From contig NMRA01000360.1 of NCBI GenBank assembly GCA_002633005.1, positions 1-64,000 of the forward strand: a stretch of 64,000 nt of DNA, in the 5' to 3' direction. The stretch comes from Phoronis australis. Lineage: Eukaryota; Animalia; Phoronida. Shown here in pieces: positions 36,652 through 59,749 of the stretch. The notes below the pieces were generated by a model that had not been told where the DNA came from, made no database searches, and saw only the letters and a program-made list of their open reading frames with translations. How positions within the stretch are numbered: position 1 is the stretch's first letter; each line of letters begins with the position of its first letter. The translations under genes and the position numbers were made by a program.

Positions 36652-36715
36652 TCCAATCATTGAAACGACATCACCTCTAATAAAAGTCGAGTTTTTCATA
36701 AGCAATATCCCACTC

Positions 36716-37778: not shown

Positions 37779-40700
37779 CTACTGTATTTTCCTCGCTGCT
37801 AGCTTTACGCCGTCTTCTAGAACTTGCATGTATCTATACGTCAGCGCGTCTCCGTACCTGAACATAACAAAGTGGGTATAACATGAATCAGGCTGGGGTC
37901 CGGGAATTTTAATACTTTGTAGTTTTACAATCTTTGGTGATGAAGGAATCTGAGTGTTATCAAAGATTCACGGGTAAGTGGGTAGGTAAAATATTTGTTT
38001 TTCACTGTTGGGAGTATTTATTTTCTGTTGCAAAATAAGGATTACATCGCTGAGGAATTCTAAATCATACACGAATTCACAATAGTTTCTCAAAAGGACA
38101 CCCAGAAAAACAACAACGAATGTACGAGTATTTGAAAATCAATACTTACAGACTGGCTTCCTCCATCAACTGTTCGTCAGTAACGCCCTCTTTGAAGAGA
38201 ACTTCGTTTAAATTGCGATGTGTCACAATGCTACCATCAGCTCGTTGAATGAGTATTTGAACGGGGAATCTATGGAAAAGCAAAAAATGCAAGTAGCGTG
38301 TTGTCGTGACGATGTAGGCCTCTGTCGGACTGCTTTTATTTCATTTGCTATCGACGTCATCGTTCGTCGACGGCTCTTCGGAAATGGAAACAAAAACTCA
38401 ATACCAAAGTTACATCTATGAGGCCATGATGTAATTTTCTTACGTGTACGCCTCCAACGTGATGTTAGCTAGTCTAGAGCCTTCTTTGTTCTTTTGGTAG
38501 TCTTTTTGCAGAAGTTCCAGGTCGTAGACAAAAGTCCAAGTACTGATGTACTTGTCTTCCAGCAACGAAAGAATGGGCAGACTCGCGAGTGGGCCATCGC
38601 GCAGAGTCCGCCCCGAACCTACAATAGAATGTCCAAAATATTGAAATTGGCTGTTATCAAACAATTCGTAACACTTTGAGTTAAAAGCTTTATGACACAT
38701 TTACGTGACTCATGTAAAGCATTTCTGTACGTATGAGAGAGACTGGAGGCAGAGAGAGGGAGGGAGGGGGAGAGAGGGAGGGAGGGAGNNNNNNNNNNNN
38801 NNNNNNNNNNNNNNNNNNNNNNNNNNNGGAGAGAGAGAGAGAGGGGGGGGGGGTAATTTAATTACCTCCGTTATAATAACTTTAAGAATCACCTTTTTGA
38901 ATGTACGAAAGAATTAACCTTAGCCAGGAAATTCATCTATTGCTGACAATTTTACAGTCGTCATTTCAGAAGTAATACGATGGCGATAATTGTAGTTGTG
39001 GTGTTGGTGGAAGTGACGTTGCTTATTTAAAACCGAGAAGTAAACACAAGTCTAACCTCAGCAGGACTGGTCGTCTAGCGCTCCCCAAATGGCAATGGAG
39101 TGCACGAGCTTATCTTCAGCCGCAGCTTGAGAAAATGCTTCTTCGAACGGATAATATTTTACCTGCAACAAAAAACGTATCATAGGCACAATCCAATGAA
39201 CTATAAGTCGCATGAAAGTGTGGCGCTTGTTTGTGTACAAATATGTCTACGTTGTGACGAAGTTGATCCGATGACTTTACACTGCCAGAAGCCACTGTAG
39301 AATTCATTTCACAAAATGCCAAACAATTTCGTCAAAGGTGCTCTTCATGGTTATCATGACCATTATAAGCTGATTTTATTCAAGTCCTTACAGTAGTGTA
39401 GTTCATTCAAATTCCTGGTGTTTGTTTAGGTAAAAATAAAGTTGAGCGGTTTAAATTTGAACGTTGAAAAAGACAAGACTATTTCACATCTACTTCCACC
39501 AACGACAAAAAAATTCAAAAACTAAATCTTCATAATTTCGACGAAAGCATTTCGCCAAGAAAATAGAAGATTTGTGTAACTTGCCTTCTTAAAGGGATAG
39601 AACGCTAACTCGAGCTCTGCTTGAGCCTCTTCCTCGGTGATTTGCTTTTGCCAGCGCTCGTGACCGGGTGAGGTTCCCGATGTAACGACCGACATTAGTG
39701 GAAGATGACCAATGTCTACTTCCATACCTTCGTCCTTTGTACTGGTCATCCATTCCATATCTAAAAGGAATCGAGTTTGTTGTAACAAAAAGCGAATGCC
39801 AAGACAAAGTTACATCGTACAGAGGTTGTAGGCAACAAGATAGAAAAAAGCTTGAAGAGGTGTAATCGATAAAAAAGACTTCATCCCCAGCAAACAAAAC
39901 ATATCTGCAGTTTCTAGAAAACTAAGTGACCGCAAAACCTGCGGTTTCGTTACGTCTACATTCTAGTGATACCGGGCTGGCTACCACGCCAATAAATGCT
40001 ATTAATGCATTGGAAAGCACTACAACGTGGGCCAATACTTACCTACATTGAGTAATCTATTATGAGGAACTTCCATTTTAAAGTGTTTGATACGCAGACC
40101 CGTCTTGGCTATGATGAGACTACCGTTGAACTGCGCAGGAGTAAACCAAAATGGCGGGGCTGGTGGCTCGTTCAGTTGAAACTCTGCATGAAAGCTGATA
40201 AGAAAGAATCAGACCACCTTCGCTTTTGATATAACATTGCTAAAAAACCATTCGTTTTAGGGTCCAAACACACTATGCCTAAAACTGCGTTGTGGCTGAG
40301 AATGAGATATCCTCACGGTCGTCGACCATTGAGGGCACAACTCAGCGATGCCCAACTCAAAGAGCTGTGTACACGGTCAAATAATCGTGCATTCCTGCTG
40401 TCAACTTTTTTACACCTACGAGTTCGTATGCGCGGAATATTTGATACGAGGCTCAATGAAACTGTGCTCCGTGTGTCACAATTAAAACGTAATAGCAGAG
40501 GCGCACCGTGAATGCTACCGTTCAGCAACGTCTTAGCTATACCGAAATAGTGCTAGCCCTCAAGAAATTGTGTACGACAATCCGATTGTCTCATATGACA
40601 GTCGTATACAAAAATCAGATCGAACAGATAGGGCTTTACAACAACGTGTGACAGATCGTCAATTTAATTCGGACATTGACCTTTGACTTAAATCGGCCTG

Positions 40701-43392
40701 TATATTATAAACAAACGTTTGGCACGTTAAATAAAGCATTTCTCACGCAAAATATTTTACCGGAAGCGGATATCGTAATATTCTTGGTTTACAGCTCTCA
40801 GTATTGCGTATCCACCCTTTGGTCCGAAACGCGGGGTGACAAAGGCATTTTTGTGCAGTAGTCTAAGCAGACGATACAGTGTGGCTTCTGCGCCTTTCAC
40901 TATTGGTGGGTAGTATCTGTTGCTTGGTAAATAATCATTAAAATCTGGAATTAAAGTACACGTAAGATTACCAAAACTGGCTAAAAAATGATCAAAACTG
41001 ACATACAGAACTAAAAATTACCTGCTTGACATTTTTGTTTAGGTAGTTTTGTCAGTGTACAAGTCGAAAAATGAGGACATTGCAACAGACACCAAGAGAG
41101 TGGTTATCACAGAGAAGATGGCGACGAAGGAAACTCCGGCAAGGGTCTTGTGAGCAACAGCTCGCGAGACCACCGGATCATCTAGAGTTCGACTTAGGAA
41201 TCTGGGCATAAAGAGCACTGGATCATACAGGATATCACGGAAGGCCCCGACAACAATGTTAAAATAGAAAATGGTAAATTTAATTTTTTATTCTAGCCGG
41301 AGGTGGGCAGCCTGGCACCCTGACCCCCTAAATTTGCCTATGAATAGTGTGGTATACCTGAATAAAGAGACCACGTCGATCCAACACCAACATCGCGAGT
41401 ACTTGGTAGAAATGTTTTAAATTCTGATGAATCTATCTCTCCTTTCTTCTCCCTTGCAGTTTCCCAGCCTTTCAGACCCACTAAGAAGGGACCAGCATCC
41501 TAAAATTATTTAGTGACTTATCACGTGACTTAGGTCTATACACTGCCGTATGCCGACGCTTTTGTGTGTTTTGCCCATTCTGCTTTGAGGTGGTGATGTA
41601 ACAACATGTCTAAAATCTATTGGTCTATTTATGCCAACCTTTAGCCTATTTACAATGGCACGACGTTTCGGTCGGTCATTTCTCCGGACATTTTCAGGTG
41701 TTATGGCGTTTTTAGAAGAACGAGCACGGGTTTCTCACATATTTATGGTGGGCACAGGAAAAACATAATCTAAGTGCCCACCAAGATTATATCTGATACC
41801 CGTCCTCGTTCTTTTAATAAAGATATAACATCTGAAGGTAACCGGAGAAATGATCAACCGAAACGTCGTGCCAATGTAAAAAGGTAGAGACGTAAATAGA
41901 ACAAGAGCTTTCAGACATGATCTTGGCTACAATTGTGCAACAGATGTATCAAGTTTCACGGACTTAATAATTCGTGTCTCATTCTGGACACAGGAGCATT
42001 TTCACATACAGTCACACGGGCATAAATACGGCCATAGACAGGTGTGAATTAATTTATATTTGAATCTAGACAAATTGCACATGCAAAGCTGAATCTCGTA
42101 TGCCACAGGTATTCAAGGAAAGGCCTACACCACTTTTAAACGCTAAAACAAAACTCTATATAATATACAATGTAAGTAATGCGATTACATACTGTATGTG
42201 ATGCTTTAAGAAACTTTTATCAGCCTGATCGTTTAAAACAGCGCAGAGAAAATTAAACAGCAAAAACTAAAATATATGGATAGAGATATTGAATTTGCCG
42301 TTTCAGAACACAAATCGACGAAAATTGTACCTTCTGCGCTTATAATCAGGAATTTTTTTCTTATTATAAGCTCATCAAGAGTTTATTGTTTTCTAGCATG
42401 ACATTCAAAATGCAACATTTTCTAGGAGGTTCTAGGATGGCAGGAGAGGTCCCCCGGCTTCAATTTCTGAAGGACGAATGTTTACAACAGCCCAGAAGCA
42501 CCGCATCCCTGCACTGCTTTTTGGTCATGTCCGAAAGGGGGGTCCCTGAACTCGCCAAACCCGCTTGTGATGTTAATTATATCAATATAGGCCACATAGT
42601 TCTGTGTCTATTATTAGATGCTCCTGTATTGACCCGTTCTGCAGATACCTATGCAGTCTACATTTGTCAAAAAGAAATCACTTATTACCATAAACGACGC
42701 AACGTCTTTAGATATCCTCATGGTGTTTATTTCGAGCGGCTTGAAGGACGTTTCTAAAGTGATCGCCTTGCCGTCACCTTTTGATCTCTGTGAGGGCGGA
42801 ACCTAAAATATTCGTATGTCGGAATTTTTGCCAACAAGCATATATTTTAAATGCAAACATGAAAGTTGCTACATGAACGCGGTATCTGCACCTTTAAATT
42901 ATTGCTTTTAGCAGGAAGAGATAACCAGGATATCTCTTCCTGCTTTTAGTCAGTTCTCGGCACTTTGAAGACAACTTGCGCAAACTTTCTAAAGGTGAAA
43001 TACAGCTCAAGCGTTATCCTCAACATCAAGGTCTATTAGCGTGCTTGCTTAAGAAACAAACCTTTATGACAACAAATGCCAGACATTTAAAACAATCTTA
43101 CCACACCCGTTAGCCTTTCAACCAACGGAGCGAACTCTTCAACGCTTAGCTGCCTGTCTTCATTTAAATCAACAGCATTGAACAGGAACTTTCCTTTCTC
43201 CCCTAAAACCATGTACAAGTCGTCTTCATATGGCGTACGTCTATTTATCACGTAGACACCTGCAGCCACAATGACGCTTACTAAGGATAAACATATTATT
43301 ACTTGTGACGAGTATATACTAATTTCAATTTCTTTCCTTTCTGACGGTTCTTTTTTCTTGACGGACGTTCCAGCAGCGTCACCTTCAGCCAT
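37779..43392 (-). CDS. SELENON: Selenoprotein N; 10 exons, 512 aa, in-frame UGA = Sec
   Basis: Exons (minus): 43392-43102, 42802-42689, 41499-41358, 40944-40761, 40194-40043, 39760-39585, 39162-39057, 38618-38444, 38269-38150, 37857-37779 (TAG); 1539 nt, in frame. N-terminal TM segment, EF-hand [95 protein letters not shown] all match the SelN family. Confidence 0.95.
38575..38613 (-). promoter_or_regulatory. Selenocysteine redefinition element (SRE)-like stem-loop in coding sequence
   Basis: GGGCGGACUC pairs with GAGUCUGCCC (10 bp, one G-U), plus an inner GCG/CGC pairing. It starts 6 nt after the UGA in the spliced mRNA, as the vertebrate SELENON SRE does. Confidence 0.8.
38750..38853. repeat. 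(GA)/(GGGA) purine microsatellite with assembly gap, in the intron after the Sec codon
   Basis: gagagagggagggagggg...N-run...gagagagaga gggggggg. Confidence 0.85.
39058..39060 (-). other. SELENON: Selenocysteine UGA codon of SELENON
   Basis: TGC TGA G|gttag...ag|GT TCG GGG CGG ACT gives C-U-G-S-G-R-T, the SelN SCUG redox motif; homology continues in frame for three more exons. Confidence 0.93.
41605..41919. mobile_element. Fold-back (inverted) repeat with a degenerate hammerhead-like motif in each arm; probable inverted Penelope pLTR remnant
   Basis: Arms of ~150 bp around an 18-nt loop (41756-41773): tggcacgacgtttcggtcggtcatttctccgg versus ccggagaaatgatcaaccgaaacgtcgtgcca; ctgaag/ctgaaa...cgaaacgtc motif in each arm. 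Confidence 0.6.
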
Positions 43393-44366
43393 GGCGACTA
43401 CTAACGCGTCGAATGCTGCGGCGGTGTAGCAGTAGCCAGCCTCTTTATAAATATTCTTCAAACAAAGACAAGTGAAAAATACGTGACGATTCGAACGTTG
43501 TAGCCTGTGGGAATGTCGTGCATGTGTAATCGTGTTATCTGCGCTGGTTTTCAAAACTGATATGTAGACCTACCATCTAATACAGTGTCATGCGCAATGG
43601 CTCGATTACATCGACGCCAGACTATTTTGGGCACTTACGAGCTCGAAGGCTAAAAGATACGAAATATGGCACTTTGGCAGCTCTCTTATTTCCGTAATAA
43701 ATGCACCGGGCATTTATTGACACTCCCAAGGTGAAACATGAAAAATCATTAAGACAATTATTAGTGTTTCTTGGTTTACGCCAACAGTTAAGAAGTTGTC
43801 AGTTTGTAGCGACCTTGGTATTAGTAGACGCCAAATGCTGGTTCTCAATGAATGACACACCTCGCAATGATAACACCGCTCGAATGTCGTCTGCGCACAA
43901 CATTTGTTGTTTTTACGGCAATTGCCGGGGTTCACCATTTGGTGTATCCGTGAGTAAGTTCTTTGGTTCAGTATCGAAGTCCCTAATTACTAACTCAGCC
44001 GAAACAAGAAAAACGCTAAAAGCACACAAAGTAAGACGTATCATCATTTCACAAATAATGTGCAGTTTAAGCAGTTCAAAGCGTTTCCCTGAGTTATCAA
44101 TTAGCAATTGGATTATCTCTTTATTGGATACAAATACCTTTTCCTCAGATCCTGCTTCACTCGGCAAATAAAACACGTGAAAACAATTGTGTCATGAATG
44201 TCGCGATTGTACATTTCTAAATGAATATCGTATTTTAATCTATTTTGTTTGGAGATATACCCCCCCCCCCCCACCCATCGATCTACGTCACAGTCTTATG
44301 AGAGCTATCTTGCTCCATTTTCACTATATCGTCTTAACATTCCACTCTAGCTCCCCTTCAATCAAC

Positions 44367-46283
44367 ATGAAGGTACTTTTGTGCTTAGCGCTTGTTGTCG
44401 TCTGCGTGTATGCTGCGCCTAAATTCACTACTGAGGACCTAAAGGCTCTCGCCAACTTGAGATGGTCTGATCTTCCCGTGCAACTCCGGCAGCACATCTT
44501 GGCTGGGAGAAAACACCGTGCAGGAGACAACAGGTAACAAACTAATTAACCTGTTTCTCATGGAACAGACGCTCTCATATTAACGTCCCGATATTTAGCT
44601 TCAAACCAATTTTCGCTAGATTTCTTCAAAATGTATTGAAGAGTATTATTGTAATCCCATGCATTTAGAAAATTTACAATTCCGTTCGCGATCCTATTCA
44701 CCCACTTGTTTATCCTACCGTACAGCTACCGTTACTTGTCACGATATCCCGCTTTCTAATTTACACCATGCCGAAGCCTACTTCTCATTCCCCCAACCAA
44801 CAACTTTCCCAGCACCACGACTCAAAAAAACCTCCCGGAACATGAGATCGAGGAAAACTTACAATTACTAGGTAATGCTTTCTTTAAACATGTCTTCAAT
44901 TAATTCCCTTCCAGTCATTGGTGTTGCGCTAACGACCAGCCCATACAGTCAATACAGAGGACGAAGATTAACGTAGAATACAGTCTCGTCCACACTAAAA
45001 TCAAGATCGGCTACACCAAATGCGGTTTCCTCAGTACCGGAAGTTGTTCTCTTTACGAAGTGCGCTACAGGTATCGTGTCGTTCTCAGATGCTACTGACT
45101 AGAACATTTTTAGTATAACGCTTATTTTGCATAATTCAAAAAATGACCCACAAAGAACGAGGGTGAATTGAAAAACTAATTTGCGTGAAACAAATGAGAA
45201 AACTTGTGCTCTTCGCTATGCGTAGCCACTGGTAGATTCTACTTCATTCGCGGTGTATCAGATATGATCACAAGCAAAGCAAGTGATCTCATTAGCGTTT
45301 AGTCACGAGTATCCCGCGCTACGGCACGTGTGAGCCAATCTTTGCACCCTTACAAACTGGCTTCTATATTTACTTTTCATCAATTTAGGTCGGAGCCCAA
45401 GTATAGTATCGGTGTTTATGAAGTACCCAACAAGAATGCTTGTCCCGATCAACATGTAAAATGCTGTAAAGGTTACGTACTTATTGCGAAAGAAAACTGT
45501 ATTGGTAAGTTAGGTAGTGGGTGGAGGCATATTAAACCATATTTGGTGATTTCAACTAAAATTTTTGCTCCGTTTGATATTGTATCTTCCTTAAAAGAAC
45601 ATTTCAACTAAAACACGTCATCACTGTGTTACCTGTGAAAATTATGTTTCGAGGTGGGCGGTCTCTTCCCAGATTGTTGATTAACTCACCCAAAACCCTT
45701 GTCGGTCGATTTTGCAGATTTCTTACAGAGATTTAACCTGGTTCCAAACTTAACGTACATGACTTGTTTCAAGTCTTCGTTAGTATCTTTAAAAGGTTTA
45801 GTGTCCCTTTAAGAGAGGATGCATTTTATTCTACATCATGCCTTTCCACAATCTTTTTCTTGATTAGTGTTTTTGGATGTGTAAGCACATCGTAAATTGT
45901 ATGTTATTATAGTTTTGTTAAAGAGATGACGCGACAGTGGGATGAAATCGCAGCCTACAACTGACAGTGGCTGTATTTGATTGGCGTCGCCGATTCTGCC
46001 GGGTAAACCGGATAAGGCATCTGATTGGTCTGTAAGCTGGAAGTCAGATGCCTCAGCCGGTTGTTCCGTCAATCAAGTACAACCATTCTCAGTTACAATA
46101 GCCAGTATCAAAACACTTAGGCCTACGTAAGAGGTCCTTATAAAGCGTGAATGCCCGCTAAGTTATAATGGAATGATTATTCCCTATTCACTTAGTATTC
46201 TCTTTTCAGATGTTGCAACTGCTGGAGAACATTTTGAAACACTGAAGAAGTTGATTGATGCTGGACTCATCGGTCGCATTTGA
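44367..46283 (+). CDS. Secreted cysteine-rich EMI-like-domain protein, paralog A (170 aa, 4 exons)
   Basis: Exons 44367-44533, 44915-45070, 45389-45504, 46210-46283; intron phases 2,2,1. MKVLLCLALVVVCVYA-APKF...GRKHRAGDNSHWCCANDQP...GYTKCGFLSTGSCSLYEVRYRSEPKY...NACPDQHVKCCKGYVLIAKENCIDVATAGEHFETLKKLIDAGLIGRI*. AATAAA at ~46319. Confidence 0.85.
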
Positions 46284-46408
46284 ATCAGCATTATATAATG
46301 TAATAACGTTTACGTGAAAATAAAATTCTTTGTTCGGTAAACATACGTATTAGAGCACTTATTGCTTTTGGAAAAAGGCACACCTCTTGAAATATCCATG
46401 GACATTAT

Positions 46409-46565
46409 CAGTGGCGGATTTAGAGGGGGGCCAAGGGGACCATGCCCCCCCTAAAACTCTCCCAGATTCCATTTGGCAATTGGGGGGTGCGTATGTCTGA
46501 CGAGCAAAATCCTGGCTAATACTATGCCCTGGCCCCCCTAACTAAAAATCCTGGATCCGCCCCTG
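46409..46565. mobile_element. Short GC-rich MITE (cagtggcggat...atccgcccctg); related copies at ~34189-34331 and fragments near 41300 and 52070-52190
   Basis: Terminal inverted match, ATTAT on both flanks, internal tgtctga.g.gca.aatcctggctaatac shared with 34260-34331. Confidence 0.65.
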
Positions 46566-48317
46566 ATTATGTCCCTTACATTTCCCACTGGGAACTGCGA
46601 TCCCAGCCGACGCCAAAAAGCTAAAGTAAATGAATAAATTTAACCTCAGTAATCAAAGGAAGGGGTTGACAGTAGGATTTATTCCCCTACTTTAAAATTG
46701 ATGAACCACCATGTAGTGATGAATTTCTGTTCACCAAATGTGAATTAGGGACAAGTGGAGGTCGCTTTCTCGCTTTCCTGGCATTACCCTAGAGAGCGCC
46801 AATACGAAAAGTCAGCTATGGTCACTCGAATTAACTCAATTCAGAAGTTGTGTCAACTTAAGCCAGTCAAATTGTGCCTGTGTAGAGAAAAGAAAATGTT
46901 TCTGTTGCTGGCGGTCCTTATAAAGACCAACTCAACAAACAAAGAAATTTTATGTAAGAACACATGCATTCATCAAGTGGTTTTCGCTATTGAATCTGCA
47001 CCCAGTTACTGAAGATGATATACTTCCGAATGTATTTTTCCATTCTTGTTTTGAAGAATTATTATTAAGATGAAATATACCTTAAGCGATTTTTAATAAA
47101 AGATTGGAAACAGGACATCTTTTAAACAAGAGAAATCACGGTGACTATGAAGTCTTTGCTTTCAGCAATATGAAGCTGAGAATTTAAAAGAATTTACGAT
47201 AAAACTTTTTTATGGAGTGTTAACTAGGTCAAGCCAAAGTTGAAAATTGGAGGTTCGAGTAAAACAAGTAAGTGGAGGTGAATCTTCCCGATAAAGCAAT
47301 CAGTGAATGTCATTCGGTTCATGGCGATAGATCCAAAGCACGGGACTTTCTCCCAAAGATGTCGCTGCATTGGACTTCATTCGTTGCAGTTCATCAATAC
47401 TATACGCCAAACTTTCTTCCACTTTCTCCTACCGGGGCAGCACCGCATCGGGCTCTCCTGAAGAGAAAGTGCTCGAGTTCTTTTTAGCCACACAATTGGT
47501 TAATTCCTCATTGCTCATCTTCATTTACATAACGAGAACTGCTTATGCAAAATAACACGAAAAAACTAATTTCACTAGATGGCAGCACTTCCATCGCTCT
47601 TTCAGCGTACGCCGCGTAAGCCTGATCAATAATGGCATTTGATTGTTTCGTGAAATGGATCTTGCCTTTGAAAAGCCAGTCAAACGTATTTGTTGGTTGA
47701 CCCGGCAAGCGTATCCGAACTGAGTTCCATAGAGCAATTTCTCACGGGAAAAGCAAGATCACATAAATCTTCGTGAAACATCGCCGTGCATTACCATGAG
47801 CGAATCACGTGGTTACGCTAGCTTTACTTCGCGAGTGCCTTGCGTCCACAGAACCCAACCATGCATGCTTTGCAGAATAGCGCATCGTAGTGGCATGCAA
47901 ATGGTGGGTTTTAGGAGTGAAAAATATTTTTGTGTGTAATTTTCGTAGTCATTTTTCGTTCCAATAATGATAAAATGTGAAACAATCCTGTTTGGGATCA
48001 CTTTTATTGGACTTCGAGCAAGATTTCATTAAGTCTTAACCCAGCTTTAGATTTTGTACATCCTTTGGAAAAGAGAGTAGGGTCAAATGAAATTTGATTT
48101 ACTGTTGAAAATAACGAACTGTTGCCGAAGGCTCAATTAAAACCAGGGATGTGAGGGCCACTATTGACGAGACGTTAATTGCAGGCTCACATTTGTCATT
48201 TTCTGCTGCTGGCGAAAGTGCTGGCGCAAACACCAGCATTTTAACAGACAGACCAGTCATATCACATTTCATAATTTACTTTTTAGACGTAGGATTACTT
48301 TTAAGCACAAAACGTGA

Positions 48318-48810
48318 AAACCCCTTCGGAAACTTTCCAATATGCTGTGTAAACTGAAGTCACCCATCCCTTTATTGAACAAGAGCAATGTTGTGTATAA
48401 GGTTGAATGTGACAACTGTAAGGAATTCTATATGTGACTCACACAGAGACGCCTCTGTGACAGGTTGAAAGAACATCACACCTCAGAGAAAAGTAACATA
48501 TATAGGCATTGTATTAGCTACAATCACCAAGCCAACTCTGTTAGCATTATCTGCAGAGAACCTAATAAGGAGTTACTGTACATTAAAGAGTCATTGGCCA
48601 TTCAGAACCAGCATGCCACTGATTCTCTGAATAACATGCAGAGCTCTGTGACCCTGCAACTATGGTGATGACCAGCTACTGACATATTCTATGTATCTCT
48701 CACTTCACTCTATGGATGTTACCTGAGCTGTATGTTGGCACTTGTTGTCCTAAATTGTTGTAAATATGATCCTGATGATGTCTAATGAAAAGACGAAACG
48801 TTGAATTGAA
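48318..48810 (+). mobile_element. Penelope-like retroelement 3' remnant: GIY-YIG endonuclease pseudogene plus hammerhead-like motif
   Basis: KPLRKLSNMLCKLKSPIPLLNKSNVVYKVECDNCKEFYM*LTQRRLCDRLKEH...YRH...IKESLAI...LN (VVY...YIG-type with the Gly codon changed to TGA); downstream ctgatga-tgtct-aatgaaa-agac-gaaacgtt at 48772-48803. Confidence 0.8.
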
Positions 48811-49707
48811 CATGAACGTTTTTATTTGTGCGGCGATCGTCCGGTTTTTGATCTTATTGTGGCCAAAAACTGATTTAAAAAACGTGAAATATACCTGATC
48901 ATGCCTTTTAGACAACACAGAAACGTTTCACTGTCGAAGTCACGACATCTTAACAGAGAGGCCAAGTGTTTTGTTTACAAAATAGCTAAATAAAATGTCA
49001 ACGAGCGTTCCTCACTCCATAAATCGCAGACTTCAGAATATTAATTAAGATATCCCGATCGCCAGTTTTTGCTTATTGTTATTGGTTTTGGCAAGGCTGT
49101 CCGATGACATGACAAGTTTTCGGCTGTCGTCTTTCGACGGAATTTGTGATCTTTCAATATTTTTGTGAAAAATTAGCAACCCCAGCATTTCAACAACAAC
49201 AGCGACGACGACGACGACAACAACAACGGACAACAAAAAGAACACCAGTAGTATCCAGATAAGCCTATTTGTTTAAAAGCCGGTCATCGGACTCGGTGTC
49301 ATTTCTTCATACTAACATCTGATTTTATGTAAAACATTGGCCACTATATTCAATTTTTACTACCCAGTGATATAAAAGATTGTAAAGACGGTATTGATAA
49401 AATAGCTACCAACCTATGATAATGTCCGATAAATATTTAAGGGAAATCAAGCAGGATAAGTGTACCTCTGAAATTCTAGGAACTTATCAAGAGATGTTCA
49501 TACCCATGGCCTCAAGTTAACGACCATTTCAGTTGTCCATTCAGAATTGCCAGCGTCAATCACACCTTTATGTGATTAGCTCATAAACTAACAAACAACA
49601 CGTGCGCTACCTATCGCTGTGAAAAGACATTTGTTTCACCCCTGATCATTTCGATATCAGTTCAACATTCCTTTCCACGTCTCTTCATTTCCAAAACGAT
49701 AAACAAA

Positions 49708-52688
49708 ATGGCTGCCACCAGAGTGATAGCATTTTTACTTTTTGTCGCTCTAGCTTGTGCGTACGACGAAGTTCTGAGAAAAGTTCGCAACGCAGAAACT
49801 TTGAGTGATGGCGAAAGGGAAGAACTTGCCAAAACCAACGAGGCAGAGCTCCCAGAACCAGTGCAAAGAGTTGCCAGGCTTGCAAAGAGAAGGTAAAATC
49901 TGTGAAAGGTTTTAGCAGTAGGCTAAGTAGGCTAGATGTCTCTTTAAGCTTTTCTATAAATGTATTTTACTTTGTGATCCATAGCACGTTGAAGCTTATA
50001 AATGGCTGCAATCTACTCGCGTTCACATTGTCAGGTGTGAATATTGTTCTTTGATCTCCTTTTTTATGTCAAAGGCGCCTGATCAAATTCTCAGAAATGT
50101 TTCCGCAGAGAAAAATGGCTCCAAAATTTTGAAATTTTGGTAATCATTTATTGCCTACTACTTAACTGACAATGAGTGAGTGAAAAAGAAACCAAGAGAT
50201 TTGGTAGTTCTGTGTCATTTTGCAGATACATGCTAAATGAACAGGTGTCTTCTAGTTTGCTCGTAAAACCGACATTTTGTATGATTTCAGCGCTAATTTC
50301 TGCTGCAAAAACATCCCTATCGATATTGTCACAAAGACCAGATCAGCCAAGAGAATTGAAGTCGTGAAGTCTCGTTATAAGACCGGAAATGCCAATTGTG
50401 GAACGTTCGGGCTGGGTCGATGCACCACATACAGCTACCGATACAGGTAGATAATACCGTACGCAAAGGCAGCAACGCTATGATAGATCTAAAACTATTT
50501 CTCTAATAAGATACTGAAGAGAACTTAAATTGAGCAAAATTCGTGGCCTTGGTAAATTTTTATGCATGTTGACGCTGTAACTATTCCAGTCATACGCCCC
50601 GTGTGCAATCTGTTAGATATCAAAGCCAGGCTTGAGGTGTTGTTTGTCCCAGTTTGAGTAAAATTCATGTGGCATCTTATAGATACTGTTTTTAATAAAT
50701 TTACCTATTTTCCTACATTATGAAACATACACACACACGAAGTACGTTCCACTGGCAACAGGGTGTGGAAACTAATTCTTTCCGGATTTTCTGTAGATAA
50801 ACCCATGGGCGCGTATTCGGAAAATAAAAAGATTCTGGCCAAATAAACGCCAGGGTGTTTATTTTGTTAATAAATGCATAGTTCGCCAACTCCTTGTTCG
50901 TTTTCATGAATGATAAGTGCTCTACAAAACTGAATTTGTGACTAAAGGTTGACGCTGAGTGGGTTTTTAGAGTAGAAATTTTCCGAATAAACGCCCCACA
51001 ATCTGGACACTTGACATCAAAAGTTGTAACACCAAATAAACACCCATGATTGTTTATTTGGCACAACTTTCCAAATAAATGCGTTTCATCGGATGAGCTA
51101 ATATACAGCAAAATCCCTCTACCACAAACTGCAAAAATATTTACTACACACAAAAGTACCAACGATTCTGTACCAGGTTGCATAGAACAGTCCCGGGTAG
51201 ACTCAGACTCAACTAAGTTCTGTAAATTATCTGCGTATTTTTGTATTTGTTTACTCAGAAATATTCGATTTTTTTACCATTATGTTTGACTAACCACACT
51301 TTCTAATGTTACATCTAGAGAGACCTTATTTCAACCAAAATTAACCTCAGTTGTCACTTATTCCTTGAATTAGGTTTGTTGCATGAAAAAATCCCTGTTT
51401 ATTTTCAGTAATATTGAAAATTCAGCGTTGAGTTCACTCACGGTGCTTATCAAAGCCAAACATTGACTTAGTAATGAGAATAAAACAGCACCGGAAAGTG
51501 CAATCAGTGTGTTTACAAGTTGACAGATAGTAGAGTGCTATTTGGGACTGTTCAATGGAACTGACCACAGAACTCCAAAAACACTAAGGTACTTTTACCA
51601 CGATTCGGTTTCTATTTGTTGTGATTCAGTCATTTGCACCAAAAAGTGTCCGTGGTAAGAGCGCATGATGTGGTCGGAGTTCAGATTCCTGGTGGTAAGG
51701 GCTTGTCTGCGCGTGGCTAGAGAAGGTTCTTCATGAACAAAGCACTACACGAGCAATGGTATTATTGGTATTTACGTTTGAATGGATGGATGCTTTCAGA
51801 CAAGTAGTGAAGTACGTGACTGAATCTTTCCAAGTGGACGTTCGAGGAAAATGCGCTTCAGCTGACATTACTTGCTGTAATTACTACATCTTGGTGGCTG
51901 GAAAGTGTGTTCGTAAGTGTTGGAATAGTTTCGCGTCATAGAGCTGCCTGAAAGCGGTATAAACCCGTACTTTCTGTCAAAAACAAGTTTTTGTCTCGAC
52001 TATTTACCGTTACAAAAGTGGTCTCAAATTCTTAAACCAAGATGAGGAATCATGGATGGCGCAGCACTGAAAAAAGTGGGGATATAGCCCCCAACCTCCC
52101 TGTGGTTCACCGTCCATAGAGTCGGTGGGCAGCCAAGCACTGAATTAAAAGGGGGCTATAGCCCCCCCCCAGCCTCCTATGGTGAGCCGCTGGGAATGAT
52201 TTCCGGGTTACGGAAAAACTGACAGTGACATTTATTTTTATGGGACTGGTCCGAAGAAATAACCAAATGCCAGTTCCTCCTAAGTGCCAAGACCCTTTCT
52301 AAACTGAATAAGGAAAAAAATTAGACCAATTTTGTATGTGATCTGAATCAAAACTTGTTTTTGACCGAAAGGATGAGTTTAATGCATAATGCAACTTTCA
52401 CAACTGTTCATAAAAGCAGCGTAGATGGATCTTACAAGTGCGTTGAAGCATGCGTTTAAATATCTTGTAGTGTTTTCAGAATCATTCCATAGACTTTTTA
52501 GGGATAACTCTTGGAGCGATTTGTGGGAAATCGACACTCACTTGTCAAATGTTCAGACGCCACGTGTCACTCGTACTCAGCGCCATCTGCGTTGTCGCTG
52601 GTCCTCCATCGGGAGCACTGTTGATGGTTAACAATTTTCCATTTCAGATTTAGACGATCTCAAGTCCGTGATCGACAAGATTGGTTAA
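49708..52688 (+). CDS. Secreted cysteine-rich EMI-like-domain protein, paralog B (164 aa, 4 exons)
   Basis: Exons 49708-49892, 50291-50446, 51800-51912, 52648-52688; phases 2,2,1. MAATRVIAFLLFVALACA-(acidic pro)-RVARLAKR-SANFCCKNIP...GNANCGTFGLGRCTTYSYRYRQVVKY...GKCASADITCCNYYILVAGKCVHLDDLKSVIDKIG*. AATAAA at 52744-52749. Confidence 0.85.
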
Positions 52689-53212
52689 GAAGAACTAAAC
52701 TGCAAAAACTATGATGAAATTCTATGTAAACAATCCTGACGTGAATAAAAAAGTTGCATTATTCAGTCATTGTAGCTCCATTTATGATTGCATTTTTCAA
52801 CTCCCTCAAGGTAACGCAACTTCAAGATGCCCTTCGTTTAAGTGACTAATTGGCAAATAAATTTATGTCCGATTGTTGACTTTTATGAGATAAGAGTTTT
52901 GGATATTTTTACTAGAGTCATTGTTTTCGCTCTCATTACTTTTATTCATATCATATTGAAATAGCATTTCTTCAAATATTTTGAAATACAAAACAATTGT
53001 TCTTTACTCGGAACGACAACTGATTTTAGGTCTTGAAAAAGAAGTGCTAGTAGCATTATAAAATGACTTGTTTGATGTGTCATCTAGTGGAACCTTGTCT
53101 GTTAACGAATAATATAACAACTTTGTTTAAGTGTTAATATTTTTTAATACATCTCAATATTTCACCCATAAGCAATTTGATGACATTGACAAACGATATC
53201 TCATCATTCCTG

Positions 53213-56006
53213 TTACTTTCCAACTTTATCAATCAAGCCTGCGTCAATCAGCTTCTGAATTAGTGCAGCTTGATCTTTTGCTGAAAATGCCAAAGGGTAT
53301 TGTATAAACAGAGTGTTACTTTGTTTTCAGAACTATACTACAGCTAGAGCTAATAGTGTATTGTTTAAACTGTCGTCTGCTGCAGAAAAATAAGTTTTAG
53401 TTTAGACCACGCATGGTTGTGAATTGATTTCAAGTTAGCCATACTCAAATCAGGCGAATCCCACTGTTGAGAAGAACTGTGATAGATCAGTATTACTGAG
53501 AGCAGATTAGTAACACAATACTTGATCTAAATCATATTTCCAGGTGATCAGTGCAATGGGCCCACATGCGAGGCCTGCGCACGTCTGATACAACGTGTAT
53601 CAGACCACCTGCAATTATTTTTTTATAAATCATTGTTTTATTATTTTTTGACGGATGAAAGTTTATATCAGTGTTTAGGTTACTCCACCATCAACAACTT
53701 GATGATGCTGTGAAAGCACTGACATAAACTGCTTTGTACAATTTCTCGCCGTCCAAAATTGATCTCATTCTGAGAATGAACTACCCTATGCGAATACGTC
53801 ATAAAGCGCCACCTTACTGTACGTTTGGAAAGAGACGGAATACAAGTAGTGTCGATTACAATGCTAATTGATTAGCATGTTTTCACAATTCGGAGGATTT
53901 CATCTGTGGCGCTGCTGTCGTTTTCCAAATAGAGTGCGGAACTTTTCTCGGCTCATAAACATACATGCATTTTAAAAATGACATCAAAGCCTAAGATGAA
54001 ATCTACTGAACTGTATAACAGGTGAAAATATTAACCGCTAGATATTTACATAATGTTATTATTCTCCGGCCATATAAAACACGAAAAGAAGTTAAATTTT
54101 CAGTCAGTTGGTCGATCGATCGATCGGTTGGTCGGTCGGTCGGTCGGTCAGTCGGTCGGTAGGTGATAAGTGAAAATGGGAACAAGCCTAAGCGTTTCAG
54201 ATGCGCAACGGTAGTGATTAAAACGATGCGGTCACGATGTGCCAAGACGGTCTAGCACACCCTGTAAGTCAATGGTTCTGATATGAAGAAGCACACCATT
54301 AAAGCTTATAAGTAACTTTCATTTCTTATTTTTGTGTGTAATTGCAAATTTCCCTCCATTTGTTCTCTGTACCTGAAAGACGGTCCCATTTTAATTCTTC
54401 TAAACAGAAATATGCAAAGCTATCACAAACAGCCTGCGAAAAGCAAACCATTTCAATGTTTTTGTTGAAGCGGGACCGGCAAACACAATGTGCCGGATGA
54501 TTCTTACGCGGCAGTGGTGCCACACCACATGATTGCCGAGCTTGAACTTGGCCGGAACAACTATTACGTACCCCATCGCGGCATGGTAGGTAACACAGCA
54601 TTGGTCACGTGATATTCGGCATGGCATCTAAATACTCATTGGCTACGTTTCATAAGTTCGCTAATTAACGAAATTTTTAAACATGTGAAATGTTGTGTTC
54701 CATGACAAGTAAAATAAAAACCCAAAATAGACAGAAAATAGGTTGACTGAAGGCACCGATAATATTTAAATGATCGTATTACCCAGTTGTTGGTTAAGAC
54801 AAAGGGTAATTCCTTTATTGTGTCGCAGTGGCATTAGAACAGTTAGAATAGTAGTGTAACAACATAAGAAAATGTAGACCGTAGGTATTTGTATAGCTCC
54901 CTCTTTCGTGCATGATACTTACTAACACAATTGCCCTGCATCAACACGAAACCTTTGCAACAGATCACTTTGTCATCCGGGCACCTTGGCGTTTCAACAA
55001 CTGTGTCCGTCACCGTAACCACGCGATAGACGGGGACCATGCTAAAAAGATACGTGTATGTATATATATATACATACATATGTACGTATGTATACATGAA
55101 TATGTATTTGTATATGGATACATAGACACACACGCGCACACGTACACGCAAACGCATACGCACACACACATTCATACAACGACAATCTACAGTTTGAGCA
55201 GTTTCAGTTTTCTTGAAACTCGTACAAGGCAATCGAAAGACGGACGATGTTTTGAGGAAATATTTAAACATGGAAATTTTTAAATTTTGACAACTTAAAA
55301 TATTAATTTTCGATTTTTAGCATCAAAATGCTTGTGTCAAATAAGATCACGTGAGGTGAGCGTGGTAAAACTTACTGAGTTACAGACTTGTAGATGGGGC
55401 AGTGCGACAGTTCCGGAAATCGACCTTCGTACGTCCAACAAGGCTCATATCCGCTGGTGATGTTGGTACGGACAATTTCGTTGAATCTTTTCACCTTTGT
55501 TTTGGTCACGTATTTGTGAACTGGCGTGATATCAACTGCGCAGCACCAATGAGAACTAAGAATAGATAAATTATGCTCATTGAGATCATTCAATATGGTT
55601 GTAGTAAATGTTATCGTTGCTGCTGGTCTTGTTCTAATCGTCGCTGACGTTTGTCGTAAATTGTCACCTTTACTGCGAGTGTTAAGTTTTGGTATTTTCT
55701 AAAAGTAATTGTTAAAACGTTTGAAGTACGTGATGTAATGAATTACTCGTTACATCAAATGAAACGTTGGAAATAAATGCACAAATGCGGAGCTTAAACC
55801 ATTCCTTCACGCATATCTTTTTACAGTAAATGCACTACTGAAATAGCACGTTTTGGTAGATATTACAAGACGACAGGAGACGACAAAACTTACAGAAGGC
55901 TTTCTTGTATGAAAACTTACTTGTCACCTTTTGGAATGGTGCCAGTGTCACTGCTTACAATCGCAACAAGAACCAAAACGCCCAGAGTGGAAACCAAGAT
56001 CTTCAT
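53213..56006 (-). CDS. Secreted cysteine-rich EMI-like-domain protein, paralog C (150 aa, 4 exons)
   Basis: Exons (minus) 56006-55921, 55555-55376, 55041-54923, 53280-53213; phases 2,2,1. MKILVSTLGVLVLVAIVSS-DTGTIPKGDNSHWCCAVD...GYEPCWTYEGRFPELSHCPIYKSVTHMVPVYRVVTV...RCPDDKVICCKGFVLMQGNCVTKDQAALIQKLIDAGLIDKVGK*. Confidence 0.85.
54108..54160. repeat. (GGTC)/(GATC) tetranucleotide microsatellite
   Basis: gtcgatcgatcgatcggttggtcggtcggtcggtcggtcagtcggtcggt. Confidence 0.85.
55050..55175. repeat. Compound (TA)/(TGTA)/(CA) microsatellite
   Basis: tatatatata tacatacata...cacacacgcgcacacgtacacgca, next to the acceptor of paralog C exon 3. Confidence 0.85.
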
Positions 56007-57003
56007 TTTTTTGTTGATAACTTTCAAGCAGTACCAGAAAAGAGTGTGTTCAGTATGCAACAAAGAAATATCCAAAACCAAAATGGCGCCGAGTACGGCA
56101 AACAGAGGTCACGTGCTAATAATAATTATCAAACACAGTGACATCATACTCAAGCAGAACACACTTTTCGCACGGTGATATGAAACTTGCCGGCTCATCG
56201 TCCAGATGTAGGTTCACTTTGATTCCTAAGTGGTGTCGCCTGCCTCGCACACTTAGGTCAAATGTCTGTCGAAGGATGTGTTTATACGAGGAGTGACCTT
56301 GATACCAAGAACAAGCACAACCCTAGGAAAATAACCGTTCTGTTTCTCGTGTAGACACCCTGGTGATTAATTTAATTAGGTAGAGAACTTTCCGGCAAGT
56401 TAATAAGAATAAGTTGGGTATTTTCGAAGTATATGTGACAGAAGTATGTTATGACTACGTCCCAAACATTGACCTTTTACTTTTACTAAGTTATGAGACC
56501 CACAGGAACAAAGAACCCTCACCCAATTGGAAGCTGATTAATTCAATAATTAGTCAACTGATAAACTTTTAATATCAATTAATTTAATGCGTTATAGTGA
56601 CATAAAAAGGAAATGAATCGGAAAGGTTGTATAAATGATTAATTAGGGATGTAATTTCAATTATTCTGAAGATTGCAACTGGATAAAGACATTCAAATAT
56701 TGACCCCTAACTGTTTTTGTGAAGAAATTAGTCAGGCATTCATCCACAAGTACACATCTGTTTATAATAACTGGACTTTTGGTGCCGTTCTCAAGTAAAA
56801 ACCTAGGAAGTAGTGACATTTAGTAAAATGTGATAAACTCCAAATACCTATACGAAATTTGCAGATAAGTGTTTTCTGATAGATAAAAAACGGGCGATCA
56901 TCTATTGTGTAGGTTTGAAATATACTCATTACATTGGTTTCAGTGTAGGACTTTGCATAGATATTTAGAAATAATAGCATTTCTTCGAAAAGTGAACATT
57001 ATA

Positions 57004-57290
57004 TATTTATATTTGTAGCATGTGTTACCGTAAACAAGAGACATTGTAACACATTTATATTTGTAGCATGTGTTACCGTAAACAAGAGACATTGGAAAAC
57101 ATTTCTACGATTATTACTTTACGGAGCTTCTGAAGGGATGCCAAAAATAAATTTCCAAATTTTTGCGTTCATTTGCAAAATTTCTACGTTCCCTCGCAAA
57201 TATTTTTGCGTTTCCTCGCAAAATCTTTGCGTTCCTTCGAAAACCATTGCATTCCCTAGCAAATATTTTGCGCACTCTCTCAAACTTTGT
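57004..57290. repeat. 48-bp direct duplication (57004-57095) followed by a degenerate ~21-bp minisatellite (57155-57290)
   Basis: atttatatttgtagcatgtgttaccgtaaacaagagacattg x2; aaa.tttt(t)gcgttccctcgca-like units about 6 times. Confidence 0.75.
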
Positions 57291-59749
57291 GTACATGCGT
57301 GAGAGGTTGTTTTATAGTTGAAATTGCTTCCTGAAAAATGGCTGACACCAAAAGCGACAGAGACGATTTGATAAGAGTTTACTTTGATTTGGGATTGATA
57401 TGTAATTACATCCCTCATGTATTAACTGTTTACAATGGTAGTGTCAATAGAAGCATTTGAAAAGAATTCTTAAAGTCCTGGTCTCACACGTTGTTAACCC
57501 TTATTACATGGTTAGAGGATGTTATAAGGATCCAAGAAGTACCTACCCCATAACTAATACACGATCCGTACTCGAAAAAAGTTTAAATGAACGCGCCACT
57601 CACGATTCGCACCCGAAGAACCACCGCCATCTTGAACTTGCCGCGAACCCGGAAGTACAATTCATTCAGGAACTAGCCTGCAAACGGGGATAAAATAATG
57701 GACACCGCGCCTTAATTTTAATAAAATCAAAATACGCACAATTTTATCGAATTTGCTGAAGAAATGTGCGCTCGCTCAAACGAGGTTTATTTATAGACTA
57801 TTAGAAATTGGGTACTTCTGGCGAACTGTGCAAAGTTGTTTTCTTTCAACAGAGATTTTCCCAGATTTTGCTTGGTGCAGCTTAAAAAAATGGGGGCTGG
57901 AATTTTTGTGAATGTCTATCTTTTACTATAAGATTCACTGGGTATGTTCAAAGTTATGAATTGCAGACACTAAATTTTGGTACCTCCTGTCTTCTAGAGG
58001 AATATCGTCTCGTTTTCTACTTTTTTCGGAGTTCGTGCTTCTCTGACTGAGGCAGACCTTTTTCCAATTCTCCAATAGGGGGCTCGTTCGAGCACATAAG
58101 TATAAGTCAATACAAAATGTTATCATTTTTTATTCATTAAGCCAAATGATTCAACCTTTTAACATAATAAGTAACTCAAAATGCACAATACTTTACAACA
58201 TTTAGTATTACAAACACTAATCAACAGCAAAAGTTTCCACGATATGAAAGTGGACATACATGTAACTATTACCATGGAGACCGAATAGTGTTTCCTTACA
58301 CCAGAATTCGACAAGCATGATTAAAAAAATATGAAGTTGCAAGGAACAAGAATTAGAGGCTTGAAGCTTCACAATCCAACATAGCTTATTTCTCAAATTA
58401 AGATTATTCATATTGATGTCTTGATAACCTGAATTAAGAAGCAATAAGTTACAAAACATGACTTGAAAGCAATTGAGACTTAAAATTTAGGAAAATATGA
58501 ATCATTTTGTGACACCTAATCAAGATTTGAACAGCAGTTGAAAGTCAAACAAAAAACCATTTCAAAATTATTTCAACTATTTTTTTAGCTTTGTGTAATA
58601 TCGCCTGAATGGGAAATTGACAGTAAAATAATTCGAATTATCTCATATTTTTGCACAAAAACACACACGAAAATTAAAGAAAGTTCCATTTTTGTAGCAA
58701 CGTTTTTCAGAATGTATCAACGTTAAATCTTCACAAATTACAAAGTAACAGGTTGAATATGCCTTCCAGTTCAGCAAAAGTCGCCATGTTGTCGGTGCCG
58801 CCAGAAATGAGACGAGGTCCAACGGGAATTGTGAGCACATTTATCACTTAATGAGTAACAACTGGGAGGGTGAAATTTGGTGAACACTGTTGAATCGTGC
58901 AGAATAGTAAGTAAAGACATGTCTCACTAAATTTCACCGTAAATTGTAGGCGAAAACAATTTGCACAAAGTTTTAAGCTCGTAACTTATGCCGCTGTCCT
59001 CCAATATGGCCGACGCTATCCAAACAAAGTGACCCAAATTTCGCCACAAAAATTGCAATAACTTTACAGTGCTTGCCCCGATTTTGATACTTTTTCGATT
59101 TTTACTGAGTAAAGTGCACTACCTTTCCGATGATAGCAAAGCACTTTTTCAAAACAAGAAAAAAATCAAAACGGAAAAAATTGGTTCGACTCATATTGGT
59201 TCCTAGGTTCGACCGCCCAACGTAAGGAACTAAACACCAGTGCTATTTTAACATAATAAGTACGCGTAACATTCTAAAAAAATTCAACGACCACTAACTA
59301 CAAACTATAAAGAAACTACACACACAACTGATAAAACAAAATAATGAAAACCTTTCGAGCAAGCGATAGCACGTTCAGTTACAAGGAAAAAATGGCGGCG
59401 TTCAGGACAAGTTCCTGAACTGATGAGCCGGAAATGTGGGTACGGAAATAACCGATGACGGCCGGTAATTATACGCTCACAGAGAAGGGTCAAATACTGT
59501 TAAAAATCGCTTTTGGAAAGACAGGCGAAAAGAATATAAAGAAAGGGTGTCGAAAATAAGAATTTATGTAGTAAGTATTTTCGGATACTGGAACCACATG
59601 GGCAGTTTGAGACCACGACTTTAAGTCTTTCGGGCTATCTCGGAGACGTGATCTCTCTAGCATCACCGACGTCGTTAACTTTGTTGAAATCAGTTTGGCG
59701 GATTTGGCCGGTAACATGGGTATTCATGGATGACGTATGACGACGAAAT

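What the first reader, a model, noticed from the sequence alone, without database searches (positions are those of the whole stretch)
44367..56006. Cluster of three secreted stand-alone EMI-like proproteins with an 8-Cys framework
Seen: three genes, not assembled by the ORF track, share four coding exons with intron phases 2,2,1, a signal peptide, and one domain with pattern (W/F)CC-x30-34-C-x7-12-C..Y-x-C-x6-CC-x-(G)Y/F-x-C, followed by a short tail. Known: HWC...C...C..Y...Y(R)..P.Y.V...CC.GY...C is the signature of the EMI domain of EMILIN/multimerin/CED-1-Draper-Nimrod proteins, where it is normally the N-terminal cap of a large collagen/EGF/gC1q protein. Inference: here it is the whole mature protein (150-170 aa), with an extra Cys next to the first Cys and another 7 residues before the CC, likely forming an added disulfide. 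Sequence between cysteines is highly diverged. This pattern fits a lineage-specific secreted effector family (defence, toxin, mucus/adhesive or matrix) that I do not recognise as described.
Basis: partly seen in the sequence, partly recalled or inferred. Interest (0 to 1): 0.8.

Follow-up and report, generated by a model that had tools for sequence, protein, structure and literature searches.

The report
Undescribed spiralian stand-alone EMI-like secreted family
Three real, spliced and expressed genes belong to an old, so far unnamed family of small, likely secreted proteins found in ribbon worms, molluscs, an annelid and rotifers, each predicted to fold into one long disulfide-braced hairpin whose greasy, positively charged tip would likely bind membranes.

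Summary
All nine junctions of the three four-exon genes are RNA-supported, phases are 2,2,1, and the stop falls 14-25 residues after the eighth cysteine (precursors 170, 164, 150 aa). The interpretation needs correcting. This is not a narrow, fast-diverging family: G1 is 67% identical to a nemertean protein and 46-48% to rotifer proteins over the domain, and G2 sits in a supported clade with nemertean, chiton, scallop and annelid genes. All 39 relatives with a species name are Spiralia and all are labelled uncharacterised or hypothetical; 55 of 58 complete relatives also end within 42 residues of the domain. EMI kinship is likely but below threshold (Pfam 9.7-11.6 bits against a cut-off of 25). 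AlphaFold models of two homologues give a disulfide-knotted base, short helices and a 23-27-residue two-stranded hairpin ending in a conserved C-G-F/W-L-G-x-x-R-C loop. Best reading (0.4): a secreted pre-pro-protein whose hairpin tip binds anionic membranes, a soluble counterpart of the CED-1/Draper head. Function, tissue and processing are untested. Literature searches found no description.

The parts
44367..44533 (+). G1 exon 1 (coding): hydrophobic signal stretch, predicted two-helix pro-segment, basic R-x-x-R site
   Evidence: 5' ends at 44356 and junction reads 435/419/5 in X2/X3/X4
44915..45070 (+). G1 exon 2: HWCC (C1, C2), first hairpin strand, tip loop C3-C4
   Evidence: junction reads 363/366/3
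45389..45504 (+). G1 exon 3: return strand, C5, C6-C7, C8
   Evidence: junction reads 268/274/1
46210..46283 (+). G1 exon 4 (coding to stop): amphipathic tail helix; AATAAA near 46319, transcript end near 46336
49708..49892 (+). G2 exon 1 (coding): signal stretch, pro-segment ending in K-R
   Evidence: junction reads 159/191/0
50291..50446 (+). G2 exon 2: FCC, first strand, tip loop
   Evidence: junction reads 174/171/0
51800..51912 (+). G2 exon 3: return strand, C5-C8
   Evidence: junction reads 123/87/0
52648..52688 (+). G2 exon 4 (coding to stop): short amphipathic tail; coverage ends near 52740
55921..56006 (-). G3 exon 1 (coding): signal stretch, no pro-helices
   Evidence: 5' ends at 56065; junction reads 213/160/0
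55376..55555 (-). G3 exon 2: HWCC, first strand, lengthened 12-residue tip loop
   Evidence: X1 contig record 6 spans the junction to 55041
54923..55041 (-). G3 exon 3: return strand, C5-C8
   Evidence: junction reads 115/99/0
53213..53280 (-). G3 exon 4 (coding to stop): amphipathic tail sharing an 8-residue stretch with G1; coverage ends near 53150

Best explanation
The three genes are spliced, expressed members of an ancient spiralian family of small, likely secreted proteins that likely descend from an EMI domain and are predicted to present a long two-stranded hairpin whose hydrophobic, basic tip would likely bind anionic membranes such as microbes or dying cells. Steps: (1) shown: transcription, splicing, early stop, family membership, conserved cysteines and tip loop; (2) predicted from two homologue models: a compact base with C1-C7, C2-C5 and C6-C8 bonds (pairing inferred), a 23-27-residue beta-ribbon closed by C3-C4, and a C-terminal amphipathic helix; (3) inferred: the signal peptide is removed and, in G1 and G2, a helical pro-segment is cut at a basic site, leaving about 110 residues; (4) inferred by analogy: the tip inserts into phosphatidylserine- or bacterial-lipid-rich surfaces, so the protein acts as a soluble recognition, opsonising or antimicrobial factor in a secretion, with the ancient paralogues differing in target.
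For: Tip loop is the most conserved non-cysteine stretch: 7 residues in 48 of 51 aligned members, G at position 1 in 45 of 48, F/W/L at position 2 in 39 of 48, G at position 4 in 37 of 48, R/K before C4 in 34 of 48; two or more large hydrophobic residues in 49 of 51 loops; the distal hairpin is net positive in 42 of 51 (G1 +3, G2 +6, G3 0). Models: pLDDT 91.8 and 93.2, strands 65-88/96-118 in P0005 and 78-104/110-135 in P0049. Three rotifer-type rows (one clade) carry an extra cysteine pair on either side of the tip, as a hairpin would allow; one row loses C1 and C7 together. EMI is the only Pfam family that recurs (4 of 72 at E<=1; 7 of 48 proteins listed singly, covering model positions 1-3 to 67 of 69 in four of them), and Atlas neighbours by feature and by structure are MEGF10/11, PEAR1, Draper and collagen XXVI clusters. 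Draper is ligated by phosphatidylserine and lipoteichoic acid (PMC8092387 passages). The perforin-2 P2 hairpin, disulfide-braced, basic, with a hydrophobic tip, is sufficient and necessary for binding anionic lipids (PMC6989145 passages): a precedent for the shape, not a relative.
Against: No binding, tissue or induction data exist here. EMI kinship is under every threshold: Pfam 9.7-11.6 bits against 25, Atlas feature score 0.77 (lead only) and TM 0.27-0.36. The perforin-2 P2 match is not significant (E 0.15, TM 0.13). The passages read do not assign Draper's lipid binding to the EMI domain itself, and in NimA and PEAR1 the EMI domain mediates cell adhesion (PMC13076899 passages), which points to protein partners. 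G3 has a 12-residue loop and no net charge there. G1-type sequence conservation along the whole hairpin (67% to a nemertean) fits a protein partner as well as a lipid. A dibasic or R-x-x-R site precedes the domain in only 31 of 49 members (no chance rate computed) and G3 has none, so processing is not universal. pTM is only 0.67 and 0.64, the models are of homologues and not of G1-G3, and no coordinates were available to read disulfides.
Confidence: 0.4

Rival explanations
1. The proteins are structural components of a secreted matrix (mucus, cuticle, tube, adhesive): after loss of the pro-segment the bare beta-ribbons pair edge to edge, several paralogues co-assembling.
For: All three genes are high in X2 and X3 and nearly absent in X4; the ribbon has no core of its own in the models and is rich in T, Y, V, K, R on both faces; EMI domains are reported to self-interact and to support multimerisation (PMC3342094 and PMC11949838 passages); two unnamed relatives fuse the domain to Link modules.
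Against: No repeats or low-complexity segments typical of structural secretions; the best-conserved part is the tip and not the ribbon edges; the named hosts make very different coverings.
Confidence: 0.25
2. The proteins are signalling ligands or ligand modulators: pre-pro-proteins whose hairpin tip binds a conserved receptor or growth factor.
For: Signal plus pro-segment plus basic site in G1 and G2; strong cross-phylum conservation of the G1 type and a cross-phylum G2 clade; the EMILIN1 EMI domain interacts with proTGF-beta and NimA/PEAR1 EMI domains act in adhesion.
Against: Expression looks high for a hormone (about 450-fold depth on G1 against 7-12 on the neighbouring gene's first exon in X2/X3); family size varies, with at least 9 genes in Tubulanus.
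Confidence: 0.2
3. The proteins are digestive-tract secretions that bind dietary membranes or lipids, as cofactors for breaking down ingested microbes.
For: Same tip anatomy as in the best explanation; sample-restricted high expression; many named hosts feed on microbes or particles (own knowledge).
Against: Tissue of the runs is unknown; predatory nemerteans have the largest sets found.
Confidence: 0.1
4. The proteins are toxins or venom components.
For: Small, disulfide-rich, likely secreted, clustered and expanded in nemerteans.
Against: Present in rotifers, bivalves, chiton and Owenia; orthologues are conserved, not fast-evolving; family motifs were absent from the readable supplements of two nemertean toxin papers (these files may not hold all sequences); the hairpin lacks a clear alternating transmembrane pattern (judged by eye).
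Confidence: 0.05

Closest known systems
EMI domain of CED-1/Draper/MEGF10/MEGF11/PEAR1/NimA (Pfam PF07546)
   Same: Aromatic-Cys start, C-x7-C loop followed by Y-x3-Y, CC-x-G-Y/F near the end, single copy behind a signal peptide; nearest named neighbours in the Atlas; weak full-length Pfam alignments.
   Different: Below the Pfam cut-off; two additional cysteines; longer ribbon (about 80 residues align to 65 model positions); no EGF/NIM repeats, membrane anchor or cytoplasmic tail; has a pro-segment and a C-terminal amphipathic helix; no long MEGF-type protein among 78 profile hits.
EMILIN/Multimerin/EMID1/collagen XXVI (EDEN superfamily)
   Same: Secreted, N-terminal cysteine-rich domain encoded by exons 2 and 3 (EMILIN1 per PMC3342094), followed by a helical segment.
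   Different: Seven cysteines and consensus WRCCPG(Y/F)xGxxC there; eight cysteines and 9-10 residues before the last Cys here; no coiled coil, collagen or gC1q; the C1-x4-S/T fucosylation motif is absent from G1 and G2.
Perforin-2 (MPEG1) P2 beta-hairpin
   Same: Long disulfide-braced basic hairpin with a hydrophobic tip (PMC6989145).
   Different: Analogy only: Foldseek E 0.15, TM 0.13; no MACPF domain; different base.
Secreted engulfment bridging molecules (NimB4, TTR-52, Orion)
   Same: Small or medium secreted proteins that work beside CED-1/Draper-type receptors (listing and passages); a possible functional parallel.
   Different: No sequence similarity was found or tested; different domain make-up.
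Spiralian-specific genes lophotrochin and trochin (PMC7441323)
   Same: Conserved protein motif found across spiralian phyla including rotifers.
   Different: Not this family: no mention of EMI, secretion or cysteines in the main text and none of six motif or name terms in 4 readable supplements.

Membership tests
EMI domain (Pfam PF07546) | Score at or above the curated cut-off of 25 bits | tested here: not met
   Best 9.7-11.6 bits in 7 of 48 homologues scanned singly; best E 0.15 among 72; single exons of G1-G3 gave no EMI hit. The spliced G1-G3 proteins themselves were not scanned.
EMI domain (EDEN definition, PMC3342094) | Seven cysteines at regular positions (six in MMRN1) | tested here: not met
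   Eight in G1-G3 and exactly these eight in 46 of 51 aligned members.
EMI domain (EDEN definition, PMC3342094) | C-terminal consensus WRCCPG(Y/F)xGxxC | tested here: not met
   CC-x-G-Y/F is kept in G1 and G3, G2 has N for G; no WR, no P; 9-10 residues between CC and last C against 7. The same review says the CED-1-type domains also conform poorly.
EMI domain (EDEN definition, PMC3342094) | Single copy at the N-terminus of a secreted protein | tested here: met
   One copy after signal and pro-segment; signal judged by hydropathy only.
EMI domain (EDEN definition, PMC3342094) | Encoded by exons 2 and 3 | tested here: met
   Exons 2 and 3 in all three genes; exact intron positions were not compared with EMILIN genes.
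EMI domain | Fold with two long antiparallel strands braced by disulfides | tested here: inconclusive
   Models show it; all 10 Atlas structure rows are MEGF/PEAR1/Draper/collagen XXVI-type clusters but TM 0.27-0.36, under the bar; no significant PDB match.
EMI domain | POFUT3/4 motif C1-x4-S/T (PMC11949838) | tested here: not met
   Absent in G1 and G2; in G3 only if counted from the second Cys; 12 of 51 members counted from the first Cys, 10 of 51 from the second.
EMILIN/Multimerin and CED-1/Draper/MEGF10 proteins | Long downstream region (coiled coil, collagen, gC1q, or EGF repeats with a membrane anchor) | tested here: not met
   Stop 14-25 residues after C8 with RNA coverage ending shortly after; 55 of 58 complete relatives end within 42 residues.
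Nimrod superfamily | CCxGY/W motif followed directly by a NIM repeat (definition recalled, from no call) | tested here: not met
   CCxGY/F present in G1 and G3, but followed by one Cys and a helix; no EGF/NIM Pfam hit in 72 members.
MACPF/perforin-2 | MACPF domain with P2 domain | tested here: not met
   No such domain in 150-170 aa precursors; only a non-significant hairpin overlap.
Lipid-binding recognition proteins (works-like claim) | Binding to anionic lipids through the hairpin tip | not testable with these tools
   Needs a liposome assay.

The most novel reading that the evidence does not exclude
The ligand-binding EMI head of the CED-1/Draper engulfment receptors was set free as a soluble pro-protein in the last common ancestor of Spiralia, gained a fourth disulfide and a tail helix, split into several subfamilies before nemerteans, molluscs and annelids parted, and forms an unrecognised clade-wide system for marking microbial or dying-cell membranes: a molecular synapomorphy of Spiralia including Gnathifera.
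Probability: 0.25. Interest if true: 0.78.

Novelty: new variant of a known kind. Interest (0 to 1): 0.58.

Why it matters
Papers read here describe the EMI domain as an N-terminal cap of large proteins; a family in which it is the whole mature protein gives a small, expressible handle on what this domain binds, and no solved structure matched it in the PDB searches. Few protein families are known that are shared by rotifers and lophotrochozoans yet not found outside; this one has clustered, ancient subfamilies, is highly expressed in at least one sample type, and includes genes in farmed oysters, mussels and scallops, where a soluble membrane-recognition factor would bear on immunity. The gene models already exist in public annotations as uncharacterised proteins, so the novelty is the family and its anatomy, not the individual genes.

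Tried and rejected
No genome is held for the window, so family size and synteny in this species are unknown. Pfam on single exons: nothing useful. PDB sequence searches: profiles A7 and A8 gave 0 hits at E<=10; the septin hits with A5 (E 0.004) are rejected as an artefact of a fragment profile that had lost the C4 columns. Fold searches: PDB Foldseek none at E<=0.001, VIA best Z 3.1, rmsd 8.7, 76 aligned, viral library none at E<=0.001; pore-forming toxin stems and class II fusion proteins were considered because of the hairpin and the tip loop and rejected for want of any significant match. Homotrimer prediction of P0005 residues 50-165: 'no answer', score 0.00, alignment not used; it counts neither way. 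Metagenome scan: 2 loci from 30 stretches; L001 is an intron-less partial family sequence joined to unrelated sequence, L002 a chance match with stops. The look-up of sequencing runs listed no RNA holder by index; the evidence comes from the lays. Rfam on 31500-57500: none. Among 78 profile hits P0091 (repeat protein) is judged false, and P0092 (DDE fusion) and P0090 (low-complexity tail) look like gene-model fusions. Earlier findings of this scan: none in 3 look-ups. Literature: 'EMI domain'+'rotifer' 0 papers; six locus or UniProt ids 0 papers; 'EMI domain'+'mollus' 5 papers, none on this family by title and abstract start; six motifs 1 unrelated paper; two searches with loose term counts returned nothing with 'EMI domain' in the listed rows and were uninformative. 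The supplement of PMC11768458 could not be read and may hold family members; subscription papers are not searched.


Full report
1. What is in the sequence. The window is animal DNA of about 40% GC with no genome held. Three four-exon genes lie between 44367 and 56006: G1 and G2 on the plus strand, G3 on the minus strand with its last exon at 53280-53213. All introns are GT-AG with phases 2,2,1. The precursors are 170, 164 and 150 aa with eight cysteines in the framework CC-C-C-C-CC-C and tails of 25, 14 and 23 residues. Each has one hydrophobic stretch at the N-terminus and none elsewhere. A family profile over the six-frame translation finds these exons and no fourth paralogue.

2. The genes are transcribed and spliced as modelled. 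Four runs labelled organism A were laid on 42800-57500 and 52400-56300. Eight of nine junctions appear as joints with 87-435 reads in X2 and X3, on the expected strands; the ninth is spanned by an X1 contig. In X4 the G1 junctions have 1-5 reads and G2 and G3 junctions none. Caveats: X2 and X3 share heterozygous sites and may be one animal or pool; the tissue is unknown; the only unrelated exon on the stretch also drops in X4 (depth 2-3 to about 0), so the contrast is not normalised.

3. The family. An exon-2 profile found 1 relative among 107 candidates. Profiles reaching both domain exons found 11 of 219 candidates, then 20 of 1649, and 78 clusters at E<=0.001 among 1.84 billion representatives, 73 of them 210 aa or shorter, many being single-exon gene calls. 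Species names came with 14 proteins and with 25 of the 30 proteins looked up: nemerteans (Tubulanus 9, Lineus 4), chiton (3), bivalves (Pinctada, Mytilus, Pecten, Ylistrum, Mizuhopecten, Crassostrea virginica), Owenia (2) and rotifers (bdelloids, Brachionus, Seison). All 39 are Spiralia and all are called uncharacterised, hypothetical or unnamed. The remaining hits have no taxon, so absence outside Spiralia is not shown. Seven Tubulanus, four Lineus, three chiton and two oyster genes each share a contig of the same length, which suggests clustering elsewhere; adjacency was not tested. Of 58 stored proteins with the full eight-cysteine pattern, 55 end within 42 residues of C8; the exceptions are two Link-module fusions (P0080, P0082) and one low-complexity extension. 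Among 36 partial sequences many start or stop at the positions of the window's introns (profile positions 2-5, 55-63 and 94-96), which suggests conserved intron positions. The Atlas holds the family as an unnamed 51-member cluster 'Secreted protein' with no Pfam family.

4. The paralogues are old. Over the cysteine domain G1, G2 and G3 are 29-37% identical to each other, whereas G1 is 67% identical to Tubulanus P0005 and 46-48% to three Adineta proteins. In a tree of 51 rows (48 homologues chosen as full-length or named, plus G1-G3; fragments and redundant rotifer rows left out; bootstrap not fully settled) G2 falls in a clade with nemertean, chiton, scallop and Owenia genes at 96/90 support; G1's position is unresolved and G3 is a long branch. 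The cluster is therefore a set of ancient subfamilies and not a recent burst. The host is probably a lophotrochozoan; I did not place it further.

5. Predicted structure. Models of P0005 (72 sequences, pLDDT 91.8, pTM 0.67) and of the G2-type P0049 (52 sequences, pLDDT 93.2, pTM 0.64) agree: signal helix, two short pro-segment helices, a short strand at the first CC, a two-stranded hairpin of 23-27 residues per strand (roughly 75-85 angstrom by my estimate, not measured), three short strands around the second CC and last C, and a tail helix. The tail is amphipathic in all three genes. One rotifer-type clade adds a cysteine pair at C3-5 and C4+4, in keeping with the hairpin register. The tip loop is strongly conserved, hydrophobic and flanked by basic residues.

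6. Relation to EMI. Kinship is likely but unproven. EMI is the only Pfam family that recurs, with near full-length but sub-threshold alignments, and the nearest named Atlas clusters carry EMI or PEAR1-type EGF domains (the tool rates such scores as leads). The family fails the Pfam cut-off, the seven-cysteine count and strict consensus of PMC3342094 (passages), and G1 and G2 lack the fucosylation motif of PMC11949838 (passages and Discussion). It is best called EMI-like. No solved structure matches.

7. Mechanism. I commit to tip-mediated binding of anionic membranes by a secreted, often pro-processed protein (0.4). This rests on anatomy, on Draper's ligands (PMC8092387 passages) and on the perforin-2 P2 hairpin as a precedent (PMC6989145 passages); the perforin-2 fold match itself is not significant. 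Against it, EMI domains of NimA and PEAR1 act in adhesion (PMC13076899 passages), G3's tip is atypical, and nothing here measures binding. Structural polymer (0.25), signalling ligand (0.2), digestive cofactor (0.1) and toxin (0.05) are the rivals.

8. Novelty. Ten paper searches, of which some were aimed at this family, found no description. Seen besides those cited: PMC12669781, PMC7441323, PMC10381214 and PMC11768458 as passages; supplements of PMC7460313, PMC10674772 and PMC7441323 by term search; other papers as listings only. Subscription literature and one unreadable supplement could hold a description. Verdict: a real, expressed cluster of an apparently undescribed, broadly spiralian family; a new variant of the EMI kind; interest 0.58.

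Noticed in passing
window 14000-31000, + strand: Multi-exon gene for Mediator subunit 13; Pfam Med13_C at 29553-30029 (E 3e-15) and 30305-30811.
   Followed up: partly
window about 32500-43480, - strand: Gene with a hydrophobic segment and weak EF-hand in exon 1 and an in-frame TGA after D-Q-S-C just before a splice donor near 39060; it looks like selenoprotein N (name recalled, from no call). It starts about 900 bases from G1, head to head. Rfam found no SECIS at gathering score.
   Followed up: partly
window 48300-48830: Broken fragment resembling the endonuclease end of a Penelope-like retroelement (label recalled; translation), covered by reads on both strands in all runs with many differences.
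   Followed up: no
window 49708-50446 (G2 exons 1-2): G2 looks more variable than its neighbours: 8 of 11 listed coding differences change a residue, mostly in signal and pro-segment, one in the tip loop, against 1 of 5 in G3 and 0 of 1 in G1. The list for G1 and G2 was truncated and mixes individuals.
   Followed up: partly
proteins P0080 and P0082 (unnamed source): The whole family unit, tail helix included, is fused to one or two Link (Xlink) modules, and in P0082 to a further cysteine-rich repeat region without a Pfam hit; host taxon unknown.
   Followed up: partly
protein P0058 and clade P0036/P0039/P0059: Natural cysteine variants: joint loss of C1 and C7 in P0058; an added pair flanking the tip loop in the rotifer-type clade.
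   Followed up: yes
window 46400-46570, 50810-51050, 52050-52170, 53530-53630: Short dispersed repeats with inverted or palindromic character, covered by many divergent reads in all runs; probably small transposable elements.
   Followed up: no
PMC12669781 (passage): In the annelid Platynereis the EMI-modifying enzyme fut10/pofut3 is enriched in eye support cells; whether a member of this family is a substrate there was not examined.
   Followed up: no
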